In this document: in pieces, positions 1 to 6,777 of the stretch
Layout of the letters: each line of letters opens with the position of its first letter
Position numbering within the stretch: the stretch's first letter is position 1
Source of the DNA: a virus
Lineage: Duplodnaviria > Heunggongvirae > Uroviricota > Caudoviricetes
Length of the DNA stretch: 6,777 nt
Strand: one strand, 5' to 3'
IMG/VR virus record: IMGVR_UViG_2526164595_000004
Position numbers and translations under genes: made by a program
Notes under the pieces: generated by a model
What the model was told of the DNA's origin: nothing
Databases searched by the model: none
The model's input: the letters and a program-made list of their open reading frames with translations, nothing else

Positions 1-28
1 AGTTCAGCTCGCCGTCGAAGACTTTCCC
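1..28 (-). CDS. T: 5' fragment of the T reading frame (gpGT fusion), reached by -1 frameshift from G; continues off-window
   Basis: The -1 frame after the GGGAAAG heptamer stays open to the window edge (GGG AAA GTC TTC GAC GGC GAG CTG AAC ...). The lambda G-T arrangement is established knowledge. Too short here to confirm by homology. Confidence 0.4.
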
Positions 29-435
29 GCAGAAAAATCATCATCAGTCAGCGTGTTATTTTTCGCCACTTCAGTAATATCAGTATCCGGACGAACAGCT
101 TCGATCATCCCGGACAGGCACAACACCACGTCTTCCGCCCGGGCAATGGCATCGGCAGGCCAGGTGGTGAGCACTTCCTGCTCTATCTTCATCACGGCCT
201 CATTCATTGACGGTGACTGCGTTTTCTGTGGATGGTTATGCCACAGGGACATCGCCACCAGAAACGCGCCGGTTCTGACGAGATCTTCCACGCTAACCTG
301 CAGGTTGCCGCAGGATTCTGCCTGTTCTGCACGCCGTTTCAGGAGGGCAAGATGCTCGATACGCTGCAGCGCAGACAATTCGGAAAGCGTGACAGACACA
401 CCGTTATATTCAAATTGTTCTGTTTTCAGAAACAT
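4..435 (-). CDS. G: Tail assembly chaperone gpG-like
   Basis: 143-aa ORF; MFLKTEQFEYNGVSVTLSELSALQRIEHLAL...GAFLVAMSLWHNHPQKTQ...NEAV..IEQEVLTTWP is near-collinear with lambda gpG (about 140 aa) as I recall it. GGAGG lies 7 nt upstream of the ATG (plus 442-446). Stop at 4-6. Confidence 0.9.
   Translation of the reverse strand: MFLKTEQFEYNGVSVTLSELSALQRIEHLALLKRRAEQAESCGNLQVSVEDLVRTGAFLVAMSLWHNHPQKTQSPSMNEAVMKIEQEVLTTWPADAIARAEDVVLCLSGMIEAVRPDTDITEVAKNNTLTDDDFSAGKSSTAS
22..28 (-). promoter_or_regulatory. Programmed -1 ribosomal frameshift slippery heptamer G GGA AAG (G to GT recoding site)
   Basis: Minus strand reads gcG GGA AAG tct in the G zero frame, 6 codons before the G stop. Heptamer and position match the known lambda G/GT slip site. 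Confidence 0.7.
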
Positions 436-448
436 GTATTACCTCCGT

Positions 449-1201
449 TTACCCTGCAGCGCCCGCTTCAGTAACGGTGACTTCAGCCACTGCGGCGAAC
501 TGACCATTTCCGCTCACCACAGGGATCTGCACCTTACCTGTCGCCACGCCGTTTACCGTAATTGTCATATCTTTCACACTAATGGTGGCTTTCGACGGAT
601 CGGCGGAAACCGCTCTGAACGTCTTGTCGGTTGCACTTTCCGGCTCAAAAGAAACCGTCAGGGTGGTTGTTTTCCCTTTTGCCACCGTACCGGATGTCGG
701 CGTCACCTTAATCGCACTGACCGGCGTAATTTTGCTGCGTTCTTCCGCTACAGAAGGTTTACCCACGTTAGTGACTTTCACCGTGCGGGTGATCACTTCT
801 TTCGCCGTCACGGCCTTACCGATACTGCTGACCCAGCCACGAAACACATCCACCGTGCCATTCGGAAAACGGATTTTATAGGCCCGGACATCGCCGCTTT
901 CAAACCAGCCTATAAGCCCTTTCTGGCCTTCCTCTCCCGGTTTCCAGGCCAGCGTAAAACTGGTATCACCTGCAGATTTCTGCCCCTGCCCGGTCGCGGT
1001 CCAGTCTGCGTCTTCATCATCCAGGTAGTTATCATCGTAGGATTCTGCCGTCATCTCGCCCGGCGTCAGATCCTTCACCTTAGCCAGTCGCTGCCAGTCA
1101 GCGTCTGACAACGGGTTTGCATAAGCATCACCCTTGCCGTTGTAAACCCACAGAGTGGTACCGGCACCTTTTACTGGCTCCAGGGGATTTGGTGTTGCCA
1201 T
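449..1201 (-). CDS. V: Major tail tube protein gpV-like with C-terminal Ig-like (Big_2-type) domain
   Basis: 250-aa ORF; [12 protein letters not shown]...[55 protein letters not shown]...[41 protein letters not shown] matches lambda gpV closely. C-terminal ...[38 protein letters not shown] resembles the Ig-like domain. SD GAGGA overlaps the U stop; start 8 nt after it. Confidence 0.93.
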
Positions 1202-1208
1202 ATCGTCC

Positions 1209-1604
1209 TCACATCTCGTATGTAATGGAATAAGTCAGATCCGCAGAGCTCCATAACGCCATATCGTCATCACGACGATACTCATAGCCCTGCGTAACCA
1301 TCGTGGTAATCAGTCCTGCCAGTGCCGGGATCGCAGTCATCGCCGGATAAATCCGGCTTTCCATCCACTGATCAAGCTCTGAATCCGGTACCTGTGCCGG
1401 TAAAAACACCTCAATATGCAGTGTGGCCCGCCAGGTATCTGCATCCAGCTCTTCACCGGTATACTCTGCATCCGTCAGATAAACCGCGATCGCAGGAAAA
1501 TCCTCTTCGTCAAAAACAACGGGGCGACCATCAAACAGCGTCGCCCCGTGTTCATGCTGCTCGAGTGCATCCAGCACTGCGGCACGAATATCAGTGTGTT
1601 TCAT
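1209..1604 (-). CDS. U: Tail terminator protein gpU-like
   Basis: 131-aa ORF; [58 protein letters not shown]...[26 protein letters not shown]...[20 protein letters not shown] is collinear with lambda gpU (131 aa). Start overlaps the Z stop as ATGA (plus 1601-1604). Confidence 0.93.
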
Positions 1605-2176
1605 CGTTTTATCGCAATCCTCAGTTGTTGTTTCAGCGCGGATGCCAGTTCTCCGGGCAGGCGTTCACGCCGGATACGGTCAACATTCTCATCAAATGCC
1701 TGTTTCAGTGGGGCCGCCATCGGGATTTTCACCACCTGAATGGGAAGGCGATTACGCTTTTTCCTTCCCTTGTCGTCATTGCCCTCCTCATATCTGGCCT
1801 GGGGAAGACGTTGCATAACATGCCAGCGCCCATTATTTAATCGCTGGATAAATGCCCGCTGATAACGATGCTGACCGGCTTTGAGTATGCTGTCCGGACG
1901 ACGCCCCAGCATTCTGATCCCCAGCTTAATCACAGGGAGATCACCGCGGTTAACGATAATTCTGGCATTCGGATTTCTGACCGTCGCCCGTTTCAGTCTG
2001 GACCGTTCCTTAACCAGTTTCCGGCGAACCTTGGTCTCCCGGGCAACCTGTGATGAAGACTGATTAATCGCCGTTGTGGCCACGCGGTTAATGGTCATTG
2101 CAGAAGCAGCCGGAATGGCGTTTTTACGAACCCGGCTCAGATTGTCAATCGCCTGATCAAGCCCTTTTATCGCCAT
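1601..2176 (-). CDS. Z: Tail completion protein gpZ-like
   Basis: 191-aa ORF; MAIKGL.QA..NLSR...A.P.A.AM.INRVA..AI.QS.SQVARETKVRRKLVKER.RLKRATV.NP.ARI.VNRGDLPVIKLG...NGRWHVMQR...VVKIPMA.PL..AF..N..RIRRERLP.EL..AL..QLR..IKR matches lambda gpZ. ATGA overlap with U indicates translational coupling. Confidence 0.9.
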   Translation of the reverse strand: MAIKGLDQAIDNLSRVRKNAIPAASAMTINRVATTAINQSSSQVARETKVRRKLVKERSRLKRATVRNPNARIIVNRGDLPVIKLGIRMLGRRPDSILKAGQHRYQRAFIQRLNNGRWHVMQRLPQARYEEGNDDKGRKKRNRLPIQVVKIPMAAPLKQAFDENVDRIRRERLPGELASALKQQLRIAIKR

Positions 2177-2190
2177 AATTCACCCTGCGT

Positions 2191-2544
2191 TTATCGTCGC
2201 CGGTTAACTGCGGGTGGTTGCCCACGGTTGAGCCAGAGATAACAGCTACCCCCGTCATCCGGAGAAACACGATCCACCCAGAATGTCTCACCATTAATGG
2301 TCAGCGTGTCACCACGCCGCACGGCACGAACCGTATCCGTCCGCACAAATAATGACGGGCTGCTTCCTTCAATACGGACCCCGCTACCGGCAAACCCCAG
2401 CGACTCCGGATCGTCAAAAACCCCCTGAACTTCGCTGCCACACTGTGCCCCCGAGGTGAACTGCGCACAGAGCCCCATCACTTCAACGATCGTACTGTCC
2501 ACCCCGGCGAGGGCAGCATCAAAGGCATTCTGAAAATCACGCAT
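2191..2544 (-). CDS. FII: Head-tail joining protein gpFII-like
   Basis: 117-aa ORF; M.DF.N.FDAA.A..D.TI...MG......SG.Q.G....GVFDDPE...AG.GVR.EGSSPSLFVRTD.VR..RRGDTLTI....FWVDRVSPDDGGSC.LWL.RG.PPAVNRRR is a strong match to lambda gpFII (117 aa). Confidence 0.92.
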   Translation of the reverse strand: MRDFQNAFDAALAGVDSTIVEVMGLCAQFTSGAQCGSEVQGVFDDPESLGFAGSGVRIEGSSPSLFVRTDTVRAVRRGDTLTINGETFWVDRVSPDDGGSCYLWLNRGQPPAVNRRR

Positions 2545-2565
2545 ATTCAGCCGTTCCGTCCTGTA

Positions 2566-2904
2566 TCATGGCCGTTGCCAGTGATGATGGCACCAGAACA
2601 CTCTGCCAGCATCAACATGCTCAACAGGCTCACCTGTTTCATCGTCAACACCGCACAGGTAAAAACACTTCAGAAGCCTGATACGTTCCAGAATACCAAC
2701 GTCATCCTCACCGGTGTGCCTGCATGCCTGCTCATGAACGGTATCATCAACATCTGCGATTTCATTTTCCGAGGCGCAAACCTCCTCTTCCCACTCTGCC
2801 ACACGCTGTGCGATATCCGCAGCACTCCCCGACATATCCGCCTCGCGCCCCAGCAGACCAGCCAGTTCACAAAGACGTTTCAGATTTTCTTCTTTTGTTG
2901 CCAT
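2566..2904 (-). CDS. FI: DNA-packaging / head assembly protein gpFI-like
   Basis: Start chosen at the internal ATG (2904-2902) preceded by AGGAGG (plus 2910-2915) with a 5-nt spacer, giving 112 aa. N-terminal half MATKEENLKRLCELAGLLGREADMSGSAADIAQRVAEWEEEV parallels lambda FI MTKDELIARLRSLGEQLNRDVSLTGTKEELALRVAELKEEL. The C-terminal part is more divergent and ends in an odd Cys/His/Trp-rich tail, so the 3' end is uncertain. Confidence 0.7.
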   Translation of the reverse strand: MATKEENLKRLCELAGLLGREADMSGSAADIAQRVAEWEEEVCASENEIADVDDTVHEQACRHTGEDDVGILERIRLLKCFYLCGVDDETGEPVEHVDAGRVFWCHHHWQRP

Positions 2905-2918
2905 ATCAGCCTCCTGTG

Positions 2919-2947
2919 AAAAAAGACACGGGGGCATTTCGCCCTCG
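2919..2947 (-). terminator. Terminator-like GC hairpin plus T6 run between E stop and FI ribosome-binding site
   Basis: Minus strand: CGAGGGC-gaaat-GCCCCCG (7-bp stem, one A.C mismatch) followed by tgtc TTTTTT, immediately upstream of the FI AGGAGG. Seen directly in sequence; function not demonstrated. Confidence 0.3.
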
Positions 2948-2955
2948 CTCACGGA

Positions 2956-3985
2956 TTATTTCACCTGTACCACCACAAACTCATCCGGATCCGGCAGCAC
3001 CATCAGCGGTGCGGACTGCGTCATGGTGAATTCACAGGACGGATCGCCCACAGTCAGCCAGTGTTTCGGGTAACGGGAAGAAGCCACCACACCTTCAGAC
3101 AACGCCTGTGCATCCTTAATGGCTCCATAGCAACGAATCCCCTCTGCTGCCGTATTCCCCAGCACCAGCGTGCCCTCCGGCAGATAACGTTTTTCGGTAC
3201 CGTCCTCTGCCACATAAGACGTTTTCGCTACCACAATGGCCAGATCACCGTAATACCCTTTGAAGGATACCACTGCGCCCAGGTCTTTCACTGCCGTTTC
3301 GAGTTGTGAATTTGAGCCGCGACGGGTATCCAGTTTTTCGCGGAACAGCTTAAAGCCATTCAGCAGACGCCAGACCGTACCGTCCATAATGGCAATATTC
3401 ACAAGACCGCTGGCCTGATCGCAGTAAAGGTCAATATCATGCGTCGGATCGAACGTGTCACGATCCTGCTCAGACCACTCCTTACCGCTACCTTGTATGA
3501 TGTTATTCTCCGTCAGAGCGGCCGAAATCCACCTCGACCGTGTCAAACTGTTCCCCTTCCATGGTGTATTTGCCATACAGCACGGCATTCACCGCCTGCA
3601 TTTCTTCCACCTGGACAATAGCGTGCTCTTCCTGTTTGAGGTTATCGGTGATGATACGCAGACGACGGTAGGCCGGGTCGTTCAGCTGAGCCGGATCTTC
3701 ACCGGGAAGGCGCTCAACCGCCTGCTGGTAATTAAATTCGTGTTTCGGCTTGACGTAGCCCGGACGCAACACGCGGGTTTCACCACCACGATGGCGCAGC
3801 ACTTTTCCTTCAACGATCGGGGAGACATAGGCCGCCACCGGCGTTTTTCCGGTAATTTTGTCCAGCATCACCTCTTCGGTGTGGAAATTCACCGTACGGC
3901 GGAAAAACAGCTCCAGAAATAGCGCACGGAATTTAACTTTTTGTTCGGTATAACCGAGTAACTGGCGGGTCGTAAACAATCCCAT
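2956..3985 (-). pseudogene. E: Major capsid protein gpE-like, reading frame interrupted by an apparent +1 insertion near 3510-3511 (pseudogene or sequencing indel)
   Basis: The N-terminal 160-aa ORF (3503..3985) and C-terminal 210-aa ORF (2956..3588) are in different frames but together are collinear with lambda gpE (341 aa). Examples: YVSPIV.G.V.R.RGG...PGYVKPKHE, AIVQVEEMQAV.AVL.GKYTM.GE.FD.VEVD.GRS in the first; ENNI.Q.G..EWS..D...DPT.DI, KLDTRRGSNS.LETAVKDLG, EFTM.QSAPLM in the second. Minus strand reads tct gac G gag aat aac at the junction. SD AAAGGAA upstream of ATG 3985. Confidence 0.85.
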
Positions 3986-4013
3986 AAATCAGTTCCTTTC
4001 ATTCAGAAATCAG

Positions 4014-4035
4014 TCAGGCCAACGCGGTGGCCTGA
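4014..4035 (-). other. Intergenic RNA hairpin between D stop and E start
   Basis: Perfect 7-bp inverted repeat TCAGGCC / GGCCTGA with an 8-nt loop, inside the 57-nt D-E spacer. No adjacent U-run, so it is not a canonical intrinsic terminator. Confidence 0.3.
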
Positions 4036-4042
4036 TAACGTG

Positions 4043-4390
4043 TTACGGCAGCGCCGCGTGACTCAGGGCACTGCCGGCAAAGGCATTGGCCTTTTTGTGT
4101 TCATCCACACTGTCAGGCCAGCGGATTGCCTCCGTCGCAAAGGTCCCCGACTTGTAATAGGTCAGCACCGTCTCTGTGCCTTCAAGCGGCAGTACCAGTA
4201 TGCCAACCGCACTACCGGCTTTCTGTCCATCCCAGACCACCAGTTTCCCGGTGGCTTCATCCAGCATCAGGGGCGTCAGAGCCGGTGTTGCAGAAGAAAT
4301 CCCGCTGCTGCCTGTGGCGGTATGAGCCGGATCATTACCAGCAAAAATACGTACTTCCGCACGCTGTTCAGTGATGGTTTTCGTCACCAT
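4043..4390 (-). CDS. D: Head decoration protein gpD-like
   Basis: 115-aa ORF; ...GNDPAHTATGSSGISSATPALTPLMLDEATGKLVVWDGQKAGSAVGIL...TYYKSGTF..E...WP.....KK.AFAGSA matches lambda gpD (110 aa; SDPAHTATAPGG...MTPLMLDTSSRKLVAWDG...AVGIL...FYKSGTF). GAGG 10 nt upstream of the ATG. Confidence 0.9.
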   Translation of the reverse strand: MVTKTITEQRAEVRIFAGNDPAHTATGSSGISSATPALTPLMLDEATGKLVVWDGQKAGSAVGILVLPLEGTETVLTYYKSGTFATEAIRWPDSVDEHKKANAFAGSALSHAALP

Positions 4391-4426
4391 TTTGTTAAAA
4401 CCTCATATTGATGGTCAGCACTGACT

Positions 4427-5029
4427 TCATGGCATGGCCATGAGCATTTTCACGTCCGCATCACCGTCTTCTGACGTCTGTGACACGCCACCCCGCACCG
4501 CTGCCGGTGAATGATTCGCCATGAAATGTTCAAACAGGGCGGTTGTGGATGCAGAGACCGGTTCGGCCTTACCTGATCCCGCAGCCAGCACAGCCCGGGC
4601 GTTCTCCACGGTCATTCCCGGGCAGGCCGCCAGTTTTTCAGCCTGCGCTTCTGCCCCTTTTGCCTCATCCAGGGCCATGATCTGATCACGAAGTGAGGGC
4701 CCGGCATCCGCCAGTGGTGCAGCCGCCAGGATCGGGCGGGCTTTTTCCACCGTCATCTCCGGCATCGCCGCCAGCGTTGCTGCCAGTTGTTCACGACCGT
4801 TCGCTTCTTCACACGCCATAATGCGATCGGCTTCACTCTGCGCGGATGCCACCGGCTGCTGCGGTGCCGCCGCGGCCAGAATCGCCCGGGCCTGTTCAAC
4901 GCTCATGCCCTGTTGCCCTGCCAGCATCGTGGCAAGCTGTTCACGTCCTTTCGCTTCCTGGCATGTCAGGATCCCCATCACTCGCTGGTTCTCCTGCACG
5001 GCGGCTTCCGTTGCAGTTAATTGCGGCAT
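4427..5029 (-). CDS. Nu3: Nested in-frame scaffolding protein (Nu3-like) from an internal start within the 3' part of C
   Basis: Internal ATG (5029-5027) preceded by GAGGAGG (plus 5034-5040). Product of about 200 aa begins MPQLTATEAAVQENQRVMGILTCQEAKGREQ..., paralleling lambda Nu3 (...ENSRIMGILNCEEAHGREEQARVLAETPGMTVKTARRILAAAP). The nested C/Nu3 arrangement is established for lambda; the exact start here is inferred. Confidence 0.55.
   Translation of the reverse strand: MPQLTATEAAVQENQRVMGILTCQEAKGREQLATMLAGQQGMSVEQARAILAAAAPQQPVASAQSEADRIMACEEANGREQLAATLAAMPEMTVEKARPILAAAPLADAGPSLRDQIMALDEAKGAEAQAEKLAACPGMTVENARAVLAAGSGKAEPVSASTTALFEHFMANHSPAAVRGGVSQTSEDGDADVKMLMAMP
4577..4984 (-). repeat. 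Three tandem, diverged copies (about 140-160 nt, 36-41 aa) of the scaffold motif inside C/Nu3
   Basis: Protein repeats RVMGILTCQEAKGREQLATMLAGQQGMSVEQARAILAAAAP, RIMACEEANGREQLAATLAAMPEMTVEKARPILAAAP and QIMALDEAKGAEAQAEKLAACPGMTVENARAVLAAG. Matching DNA similarity is visible, e.g. ctgttcacgtcctttcgcttcctggcatgtcag versus ttgttcacgaccgttcgcttcttcacacgccat. Confidence 0.7.
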
Positions 5030-5920
5030 AGTGCCTCCTCTGACATTACTGTTCAGCGCCGTGGCCATCACACTGATGGCATCCGACGCATTGATTAATT
5101 CATCCGCCAGCCCGGCCTCAATGCCGGACTGACCTTCAAAAACGGCGGCCTCTGTTCCCGTGACTGCATCAACAGACAGACCGGTATACATCGCCACTTT
5201 TTCGGCAAACATCCGGTGCGCCGCATCAATCCGCTGCTGCATATCCTGGCGAACCTCTGCCGGCAACGCTTCAAACTGATTGCCATCCACCTTGTGCGCC
5301 CCGGCATAAATCAGCGTGATATCCACACCGGCCTGCGCCAGATGACCGGCATAGCTGACATGGCTCATCATCACGCCAATGGAGCCGATACGGGATGTCT
5401 GGGTAACCAGCCGTCGGGAGCAGGCCGACGCCAGCAGCATGGCTGCAGAACAGGCCGTGTCATTGCACAGTGCCCAGACCGGCTTCTGCTGCCGGAGGCG
5501 GTAAATCATGTCAGCGCAGTCAAACGCGCCGGCGGCCTGCCCGCCGGACTGTCAATGTCCAGCAGTATGCCCCGCACCTGGCTATCTGCCATTGCCTGCT
5601 GAAGACAGGCGACAATGCCGTCATAGCCAGTCATTCCGGAAAATGGCCGCATCCCCCCCAGCCGGTGCACCAGCGTGCCGGTCACCGGCAGTACCGCAAT
5701 ACCGTTCACCACCCGGTAAACACGGGCCGGTCGTTTACCTCCGGCCATGTACTCGTCCGTTTCAGCCAGCATTCCGGGAGCATCAAGCTGTACCTGCTGT
5801 TGCGGTACCGAAAGACTTGCTGCCCCCATCTCGCGCCCCAGCGCGCAAAAGAAAACCCGCGCATAGGCGGGCTCCAGAAGCAGCGGTTCATTGAATGCTG
5901 CTGCAATAATGTGTGAAAGA

Positions 5921-6777
5921 TTACGTCTCACGTGGTGTTGTCTCCTCTTCCGGCCTGCGACTCTCCGCTATCTGCTGCTGATACGCCTGCGCTATCCACA
6001 CCGGACGTGAGAGTCCGGCTTTTTCCCGCTCTGCAGATTCCCTGACCTGCTGGCGGAAAATGTCCTGATAATCCTCGCCCATCAGCGCCAGCTCTTTCTC
6101 ATACGTGCTCAGTCCGGCCTCAATGCGCATCACTGATTCCTGAACCTCCTTGAGCCCGTCAATGGCCATTCTTCCGGCTCCAATCCACTCAGCCCGTGAC
6201 CAGGCTGATCGCGCCTGATAAAAATCAAACCGTGCCCGTGGCGGACGAATAATCCCCCGAAGAAGTGCCTCTTCCAGCCAGCAGGAAAACATCTGCGTGG
6301 CCAGCCGGGACGCAATAAATTTTCGCCGCCCCATAAAATAGCGCCACGACTCATTGGCGGATGCGCGGGCACTTGAGTAACTGACCTTCGAGTAATCACG
6401 GGACAACTGTTCGTAGGAAACGCCAAGACCGGCGGCGATATACCGCAGCAGCGCCTGTTCAAGCGCCGAAAATCCATTGTCTGAATCCTGCGCGGTCTGA
6501 AGTTTCAGATCATCACCGGGGAAAAGGTGCGGAATTTTGACACCGCCCAGCGTCACGCTATTCGTGTCATACCAGGTGGAGAACTTATCCAGAATATTAA
6601 TAAGCGGATTATCCTTCTGCCCTCGCGGCGCACCGGCGATATATTCAAAGGACCTCTTCGGTATCAAGGTCACTTTCTAATCGTCGCTGCATACATCGCC
6701 TTCTACTATGGCCGACTGAAGCTGTGTTGCCTGCAGGGAATCCAGCATCTTCAGCCGTTCCATAACGCTGTAAAACT
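5921..6777 (-). pseudogene. B: Portal protein gpB-like, 3' portion (5' end off-window); frame broken by three clustered +1 indels and an in-frame TAG at 6677-6679
   Basis: Same-frame translation upstream of the TAG (FYSVMERLKMLDSLQATQLQSAIV) and the 250-aa ORF downstream (..GG.K.PHL.PGD.L.LQTAQD.DNG.S..EQ.LLRYIAAGLGVSYEQLSR.Y...SYS.ARASANESW.YFMGRRKF.ASR...QMF.CWLEEA...AGRMAIDGLKEVQE.VM.IEAGLSTYEKE) match lambda gpB. Between them the conserved KAMYAATI and ESDLDTEEV segments are only readable in the other two frames. Confidence 0.85.

What the first reader, a model, noticed from the sequence alone, without database searches (positions are those of the whole stretch)
3503..3520. Major capsid gene E is split by a +1 frameshift
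The capsid N-terminal 160 aa ends ...VEVDFGRSDGE-stop. The continuation ENNIIQGSGKEW... through the lambda-like C-terminus is in another frame, overlapping 3503-3588. Minus strand reads tct gac g gag aat aac; removing one G gives GRSD-ENNI, collinear with lambda GRSEENNI. No slippery heptamer is present, so programmed recoding is unlikely. A real shift leaves no intact major capsid protein.
Basis: partly seen in the sequence, partly recalled or inferred. Interest (0 to 1): 0.5.

Follow-up and report, generated by a model that had tools for sequence, protein, structure and literature searches.

The report
Capsid gene frameshift: assembly artefact
The one-base frameshift that splits the lambda-like major capsid gene is really in the deposited sequence, but it is almost certainly an assembly error made when two nearly identical prophages of the same E. 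coli strain were merged into one draft contig, so it is ordinary.

Summary
On the minus strand, gene E (Pfam Phage_cap_E) is split into 3985..3503 (160 aa, stop TAA) and a continuation in another frame down to 2956. One extra base lies at 3508-3515, and removing it restores a 342-aa protein collinear with lambda gpE.

The window is the whole 6,777-bp contig AIHO01000041.1 of the draft E. coli DEC15A assembly. A closed genome, E. coli O111:H21 strain 15A (probably the same strain), carries two phage-21/lambda-like prophages, each with an intact 1,029-nt E gene.

The contig is a patchwork of those two copies. Of 309 variable sites, 300 match copy A or copy B (202 and 98, in 38 alternating runs). 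The two copies differ in E by one pair of compensating 1-nt indels, 7 nt apart. The contig keeps the extra base at both, giving +1.

The hybrid 22-mer is absent from every collection searched, and 159 natural alleles are all in frame. Three other genes on the contig (portal, C, FI) are also broken: near the contig end, in a G run, and at another A-to-B junction.

Verdict: a collapsed-repeat consensus artefact, not programmed recoding and probably not a pseudogene. Read data were not available to prove it.

The parts
3503..3985 (-). N-terminal fragment of major capsid gene E (160 aa, ends GRSDGE-stop)
   Evidence: PF03864 profile positions 1-149, E=3.6e-27. Exact protein EHX96990.1 of E. coli DEC15A.
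2956..3509 (-). C-terminal part of gene E, in the frame one base off. The mechanical ORF extends up to 3588 with 26 unrelated residues.
   Evidence: PF03864 profile positions 151-329 matched by residues 27-209 of the 210-aa ORF.
3508..3521 (-). The frameshift site. Six variable columns in 14 nt alternate A,B,B,A,B,A between the two parental prophage alleles. T at 3515 is present only in copy B. G at 3508 is present only in copy A. The contig has both, so it is one base too long.
   Evidence: Three-way alignment. Copy A reads GGCCGATC-GACGAAGAATAAC (GRSTKNN). Copy B reads GGACGCTCTGAAGGA-AATAAC (GRSEGNN). The window reads GGCCGCTCTGACGGAGAATAAC.
2566..2952 (-). Gene FI with a frameshifted C-terminus. 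One base is missing at about 2600, exactly where a run of 122 copy-A sites switches to a run of 23 copy-B sites.
4427..5931 (-). Gene C (S49 peptidase/scaffold), split into 141-aa and 360-aa ORFs by loss of one G from a GGG run at about 5546. Both parental copies have GGG.
   Evidence: The gene is an intact 1,506-nt CDS in both closed-genome copies.
5921..6777 (-). 3' part of the portal gene. It has three 1-nt insertions (6704, 6678, 6652) and three substitutions (6656, 6624, 6623) found in neither parental copy, all within 155 nt of the contig end. They create in-frame TAG stops.
1..6777 (-). The whole contig: a portal-C-D-E-FI-FII-Z-U-V-G block of a phage-21/lambda-like prophage, built as a patchwork of two co-resident copies.
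   Evidence: the contig is AIHO01000041.1, 6,777 bp. (202 A-only sites, 98 B-only sites, 9 unexplained, 38 runs).

Best explanation
The frameshift is an artefact of draft assembly. E. coli DEC15A carries two phage-21/lambda-like prophages whose head and tail genes are about 97-98% identical. Reads from both were collapsed into one short contig, and its consensus switches back and forth between the two copies. In gene E the copies differ at two hypervariable codons (TCG ACG AAG against TCT GAA GGA). Aligned base by base, that difference appears as a pair of compensating 1-nt indels, 7 nt apart. The consensus kept a base rather than a gap at both indel columns: the T of copy B and the G of copy A. 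The result is one nucleotide too many and a stop after codon 160. Both real genes in the cell are intact, 342-codon major capsid genes. Shown here: the patchwork composition, the position of the extra base between the two indel columns, the intact copies in the closed genome, and the absence of the hybrid sequence elsewhere. Inferred: that closed-genome 'strain 15A' is DEC15A, and that the assembler's consensus step produced the hybrid. No reads were available.
For: (1) The window is exactly the 6,777-bp contig AIHO01000041.1 of GCA_000250495.2, E. coli DEC15A. The exact 160-aa product occurs on that contig only, among 153 billion gene positions.
(2) Closed genome NZ_CP077477.1 (E. coli O111:H21 strain 15A) has two places matching the E fragment. 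Each is annotated as an intact 1,029-nt major capsid CDS within a complete head-tail block.
(3) In the three-way alignment, 300 of 309 variable columns equal copy A only (202) or copy B only (98), in 38 alternating runs. Of the 9 columns explained by neither copy, 6 lie within 155 nt of the contig end, 1 is a G-run length error, 1 is the FI junction and 1 is a single substitution.
(4) The only two indel columns between A and B in gene E are window 3515 and 3508. The window takes the 'base' state at both. A random insertion would fall in this 8-nt interval of a 1,029-nt gene less than 1% of the time.
(5) Controls. Natural relatives scored against A+B leave 63 (L001) and 869 (phage 21) unexplained sites, or are almost pure A (L004, 304 A to 4 B). 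A pair of copies from other strains leaves 30 unexplained sites, against 9 for the strain-15A pair.
(6) The hybrid 22-mer GGCCGCTCTGACGGAGAATAAC has 0 hits in genome, metagenome and viral collections. The parental 21-mers have 18 and 55 hits in IMG/VR.
(7) The 87-nt junction has no full-length match above 83.9% identity in 5,426 complete E. coli genomes.
(8) A pattern that tolerates -1 to +2 nt found 159 natural alleles (19 haplotypes), all exactly in frame.
(9) Three other genes on the same 6.8-kb contig are also broken, at a contig end, in a homopolymer and at another A-to-B junction.
(10) The portal end of the contig falls where the two copies change from 16 differences per 200 nt to near identity, as expected where a collapsed repeat begins.
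Against: No reads or depth data could be examined, so the collapse is inferred from the product. That 'strain 15A' is DEC15A rests on matching serotype, the naming pattern of neighbouring records (for example O111:H8 strain 8E) and the best-parent test. No record states it. Natural E alleles also look patchy when scored against A and B (up to 21 runs). A few natural sequences (L051, L078: 24 A, 59 B, 5 neither) look like true A/B recombinants, so patchiness alone does not prove an artefact. The long pure runs (122 A sites in FI) show that the consensus was not a simple per-column vote everywhere. The other contig end lies inside a stretch where A and B are identical, so it is not explained by the A/B fork.
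Confidence: 0.86

Rival explanations
1. Genuine pseudogene. In the DEC15A culture sequenced for the draft, recombination or patchy heteroduplex repair between the two resident prophages produced a hybrid E gene. Its crossover fell between the two compensating indels, truly inactivating the capsid gene of one prophage.
For: The junction position is what an A/B exchange would give. Natural A/B recombinant alleles of E exist (L051, L078). Frameshifted E genes occur in about 5% of the IMG/VR prophage loci sampled (L034, L060, L069).
Against: The closed genome has only two E copies and both are pure and intact. Six switches within 14 nt, and 38 across the contig, are far finer than ordinary recombination tracts. 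Three further frame disruptions on the same contig sit at typical error sites. The hybrid is seen nowhere else.
Confidence: 0.07
2. Simple base-calling indel. The contig faithfully represents one real, naturally mosaic third allele, and only the extra base is a sequencing error.
For: The C gene defect is a plain homopolymer miscall and the portal end carries private errors, so this assembly does contain base-level errors.
Against: The site is not a homopolymer. Both candidate extra bases are exactly the states of the two co-resident alleles. No third allele of this composition exists in the closed genome or in 5,426 E. coli genomes.
Confidence: 0.06
3. Programmed +1 translational frameshift, producing full-length capsid protein from the split gene.
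For: None beyond the existence of two overlapping frames.
Against: There is no slippery or shifty motif at TCT GAC GGA GAA TAA. All 159 natural alleles are in frame. The split is unique to one draft contig. Lambda gpE and its relatives are made from a single ORF.
Confidence: 0.01

Closest known systems
Major capsid protein gpE of phage lambda and gp7 of phage 21 (Pfam PF03864 Phage_cap_E, HK97 fold; PDB 7vi9)
   Same: The repaired 342-aa product aligns over its full length with lambda gpE (E=2.4e-134). The DNA is 92% identical to the capsid gene of phage 21. The portal-C-D-E-FI-FII-Z-U-V-G gene order is identical.
   Different: The deposited sequence has one extra base after codon 157-159 and therefore two ORFs. 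The encoded protein is otherwise an ordinary allele mix.
Collapsed-repeat (chimeric consensus) contigs in short-read or 454-era draft bacterial assemblies, typically at multi-copy lambdoid prophages
   Same: A short contig. Two copies about 97% identical in the same genome. Every variant is attributable to one copy or the other. Indels arise where the copies differ in length. Errors appear at the contig end and in a homopolymer.
   Different: Double read depth could not be shown here. Some long pure-copy runs show that the assembler followed one copy through the most diverged stretch (FI).
Genuinely decayed cryptic lambdoid prophages of E. coli and Shigella
   Same: Several structural genes are interrupted by frameshifts.
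   Different: In real decay the lesions are shared by independent assemblies of the lineage. Here the closed genome has all ten genes intact in both copies.

Membership tests
Lambda-type major capsid protein E (PF03864) | Significant match to the Phage_cap_E profile over its whole length | tested here: met
   The fragments cover profile positions 1-149 and 151-329. The repaired protein covers 1-329 of 329, 222.7 bits against a cut-off of 22.9.
Lambda-type major capsid protein E (PF03864) | End-to-end collinearity with lambda gpE, whose structure is solved | tested here: met
   Residues 1-341 align with 1-340 of 7vi9_A, E=2.4e-134.
Lambda-type major capsid protein E (PF03864) | A single uninterrupted ORF of about 341-342 codons | tested here: not met
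   The deposited contig has a +1 shift and a stop after codon 160. Both closed-genome copies do meet this feature.
Lambda-type major capsid protein E (PF03864) | Position between the decoration gene D and the packaging gene FI | tested here: met
   Pfam HDPD lies upstream and Packaging_FI downstream. The phage 21 annotation agrees.
Programmed ribosomal frameshift site | A shift site and two-frame arrangement conserved among relatives | tested here: not met
   All 159 natural alleles (19 haplotypes) are in frame, even though the search tolerated -1 to +2 nt. About 1,550 E. coli genomes carry a copy one base shorter.
Programmed ribosomal frameshift site | A slippery or shifty sequence at the frame change | tested here: not met
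   The sequence CGC TCT GAC GGA GAA TAA has no X XXY YYZ heptamer and no known +1 motif (read directly).
Collapsed-repeat assembly chimera | Two or more near-identical copies in the same genome | tested here: met
   There are two head-tail blocks in NZ_CP077477.1, 96.6-98.4% identical. That this record is DEC15A is inferred, not documented.
Collapsed-repeat assembly chimera | Contig variants are a mixture of the copies, with almost no private variants | tested here: met
   300 of 309 variable sites equal A or B. The controls leave 30 to 869 unexplained sites.
Collapsed-repeat assembly chimera | Frame errors located where the copies differ by indels or where the contig switches copy | tested here: met
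   E at 3515/3508 and FI at about 2600.
Collapsed-repeat assembly chimera | About twofold read depth and biallelic read columns over the contig | not testable with these tools
   No read data are accessible.
Genuine prophage pseudogene | The same lesion present in an independent assembly of the lineage | tested here: not met
   The exact truncated product is found on this contig only. The hybrid 22-mer is absent from all collections. The closed genome is intact.

The most novel reading that the evidence does not exclude
The hybrid is real. Inter-prophage gene conversion between the two co-resident phage-21-like prophages, with patchy mismatch repair, created a mosaic E allele in the 2012 DEC15A stock. 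Because the exchange fell between two compensating indels, it knocked out the capsid gene. That would be an example of co-resident prophages inactivating each other by recombination.
Probability: 0.06. Interest if true: 0.2.

Novelty: not a real feature. Interest (0 to 1): 0.04.

Why it matters
It matters only as a data-quality point. The split capsid gene, and the split portal, C and FI genes beside it, should not be counted as prophage decay, pseudogenes or recoding. The two 'phage major capsid E family' fragments deposited for DEC15A are annotation artefacts. The case also shows a general trap. Two in-frame alleles that differ at adjacent codons can align as compensating indels, and a merged consensus then gains a base. 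Short multi-copy prophage contigs in draft assemblies should be checked against a closed genome before a frameshift is interpreted.

Tried and rejected
1. I first treated the six indels against the closest relative as possible prophage decay. I rejected this after the three-way comparison with both copies of the closed genome.

2. I considered using the number of A/B switches as proof of artificial mosaicism. I rejected this because natural alleles scored the same way also show 15-21 runs, through shared ancestry and real recombination. The argument now rests on the near absence of private sites, the balanced A/B mix, the co-resident parents and the indel-pair position.

3. The exact 35-mer and 22-mer searches for the source or any second occurrence in GTDB representative genomes, JGI metagenomes and IMG/VR all returned nothing.

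4. I tried to document the sequencing and assembly method, and the identity of strain 15A with DEC15A, from the literature. The DEC draft-genome note (Hazen et al. 2012, J Bacteriol 194:3026, cited in PMC6256406) is not held. No paper mentions CP077477.

5. I could not check whether the DEC15A draft has other E-bearing contigs, because look-ups are limited to proteins of this window.

6. Programmed frameshifting was considered and dismissed.

Full report
**What is there**

The minus strand of the window carries a lambda/phage-21-type morphogenesis block. The genes are portal (3' part), C (S49 peptidase/scaffold), D (decoration), E (major capsid), FI, FII, Z, U, V and G.

ORF 3985..3503 encodes 160 aa ending ...VEVDFGRSDGE and stops at TAA. 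The capsid sequence continues (...ENNIIQGSGKEW...) in another frame, within ORF 3588..2956. Pfam Phage_cap_E matches profile positions 1-149 in the first piece and 151-329 in the second. After removal of one base it matches 1-329 in a single 342-aa protein. That protein aligns end to end with lambda gpE (7vi9_A, E=2.4e-134), which reads GRSEENNITQ at the same place.

**Where the sequence comes from**

An exact-protein look-up shows that the window is the entire 6,777-bp contig AIHO01000041.1 of the draft assembly GCA_000250495.2 of E. coli DEC15A. The truncated 160-aa product is on record from that contig only.

**Comparison with relatives**

More than 1,500 complete E. coli genomes carry a homologous block, and the E region in them is one base shorter. 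The best whole-window match (98.5%) is NZ_CP077477.1, E. coli O111:H21 'strain 15A'. Against it the window has six single-base indels:
- three insertions in the portal gene (6704, 6678, 6652);
- one deletion in C (5546);
- the insertion in E (about 3515);
- one deletion in FI (about 2600).

It also has 101 clustered substitutions.

The same closed genome has a second copy of the block near 128 kb. That copy is the better match for the stretch just upstream of the frameshift. In both copies all ten genes, including a 1,029-nt major capsid gene, are annotated as intact.

**The key result**

I aligned the window with both copies, A at 832-839 kb and B at 125-132 kb. Of 309 columns where the three are not all identical, 202 equal A only and 98 equal B only, in 38 alternating runs.

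Only 9 columns match neither copy:
- six lie within 155 nt of the contig end, in the portal gene;
- one is a GGG-to-GG run-length error, which splits gene C;
- one is the missing base in FI, exactly at the switch from a run of 122 A sites to a run of 23 B sites;
- one is a lone substitution at 2560.

In gene E the two copies differ by exactly one pair of compensating indel columns:

- A: GGCCGATC-GACGAAGAATAAC (GRSTKNN)
- B: GGACGCTCTGAAGGA-AATAAC (GRSEGNN)
- Window: GGCCGCTCTGACGGAGAATAAC

Over 14 nt the window takes the A, B, B, A, B, A states. It holds a base at both indel columns, the T of B at 3515 and the G of A at 3508. That is the extra nucleotide. Deleting either base gives an open 342-codon gene.

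**Controls**

- Natural relatives scored against A+B leave 63 (L001) and 869 (phage 21) unexplained sites, or are almost pure A (L004, 304 A to 4 B).
- A pair of copies from other strains explains the window worse, with 30 unexplained sites against 9. This supports the view that strain 15A is the same strain as DEC15A, or a very close relative.
- The 87-nt junction has no full-length match above 83.9% in 5,426 complete E. coli genomes.
- The hybrid 22-mer is absent from the genome, metagenome and viral collections. The two parental 21-mers occur 18 and 55 times in IMG/VR.
- A degenerate pattern allowing -1 to +2 nt recovered 159 natural alleles in 19 haplotypes, and every one is in frame.

One caution is needed. 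Natural E alleles also appear patchy when scored against A and B (up to 21 runs), and a few look like real A/B recombinants. The number of switches is therefore not proof by itself. The case rests on four things together: almost no private sites, a balanced A/B mix, parents that co-reside in one genome, and the extra base falling in the one 8-nt interval of a 1,029-nt gene (under 1%) where a blend of the two alleles must gain a base.

**Mechanism (inferred)**

Reads from two prophages about 97% identical were collapsed into one contig. The consensus follows one copy through the most diverged stretches and flips between copies elsewhere. Where the alleles align with compensating gaps, a base was kept at both gap columns.

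Consistent with a collapsed repeat, the portal end of the contig lies where the copies change from 16 differences per 200 nt to near identity. The other lesions sit at classic error sites: a contig end, a homopolymer and a copy switch. The assembler and sequencing platform could not be checked, because the genome announcement is not held.

**Rivals**

- A real inter-prophage recombinant pseudogene is possible but unlikely, at about 7%. The closed genome has two pure intact copies, and six switches in 14 nt is finer than ordinary conversion tracts.
- A plain indel miscall in a real third allele, at about 6%, does not explain why both candidate extra bases are the states of the two resident alleles.
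- Programmed +1 frameshifting is excluded for practical purposes. There is no shifty motif and no conservation.

**Comparison with known things, and novelty**

The gene is an ordinary member of the lambda gpE / phage 21 gp7 family. The split belongs to the well-known class of collapsed-repeat consensus errors at multi-copy lambdoid prophages in draft assemblies. It is not a biological feature, and interest is very low. Mapping the original reads, or copy-specific PCR, would settle it.

Noticed in passing
window 6623-6704 (minus strand, portal gene): Three single-base insertions lie exactly 26 nt apart (6704 A, 6678 A, 6652 T on the gene strand), with three substitutions (6656, 6624, 6623). None is present in either parental copy. 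They create two TAG stops and then restore the frame. All lie within 155 nt of the contig end, so low-quality read ends are the likely cause. The regular 26-nt spacing is unexplained.
   Followed up: partly
window 5540-5550 (minus strand, gene C): Loss of one G from a GGG run (CAGTCCGGGCGGGC becomes CAGTCCGGCGGGC) splits the S49 peptidase/scaffold gene into 141-aa and 360-aa ORFs. Both closed-genome copies have GGG and an intact 1,506-nt gene.
   Followed up: yes
window 2560-2610 (minus strand, gene FI): One base is missing exactly where the contig switches from copy A (122 consecutive A-type sites) to copy B. This gives FI an aberrant C-terminus (...VDAGRVFWCHHHWQRP). It is the same kind of junction artefact as in E.
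   Followed up: yes
codons 158-159 of gene E (window about 3508-3515); IMG/VR loci L008-L166: These two codons are a hypervariable spot among natural lambda/21-type capsid genes (TK, EG, AG, AA, AT, VD, VE, VG; 19 DNA haplotypes in 159 sequences), flanked by the conserved DFGRS and NNI. Lambda has EE here. They may be surface-exposed residues under diversifying selection.
   Followed up: no
L034, L060, L069 (IMG/VR); P0006 (E. coli DEC12B, 194 aa): Other draft-derived prophage loci also have E genes of 1,031, 1,027 and 1,028 nt with early stops. Another DEC-collection draft has a truncated capsid protein on a 43-kb contig. Frameshifted E genes are thus not rare in drafts. Whether they are errors or real decay was not examined.
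   Followed up: no
MT713136.1 (Aeromonas phage AP1) 250152-250396, hit H21: A 254-kb Aeromonas phage record holds 245 nt that are 97% identical to the 5' end of this E. coli lambdoid capsid gene. The stretch is near the end of the record and has no annotated feature. It looks like contamination or a chimeric end in that record.
   Followed up: no
L051, L078 (IMG/VR): These natural E alleles score 24 A-type and 59 B-type sites with only 5 private sites. They look like genuine recombinants between the two allele families, so real A/B exchange does occur in nature.
   Followed up: partly
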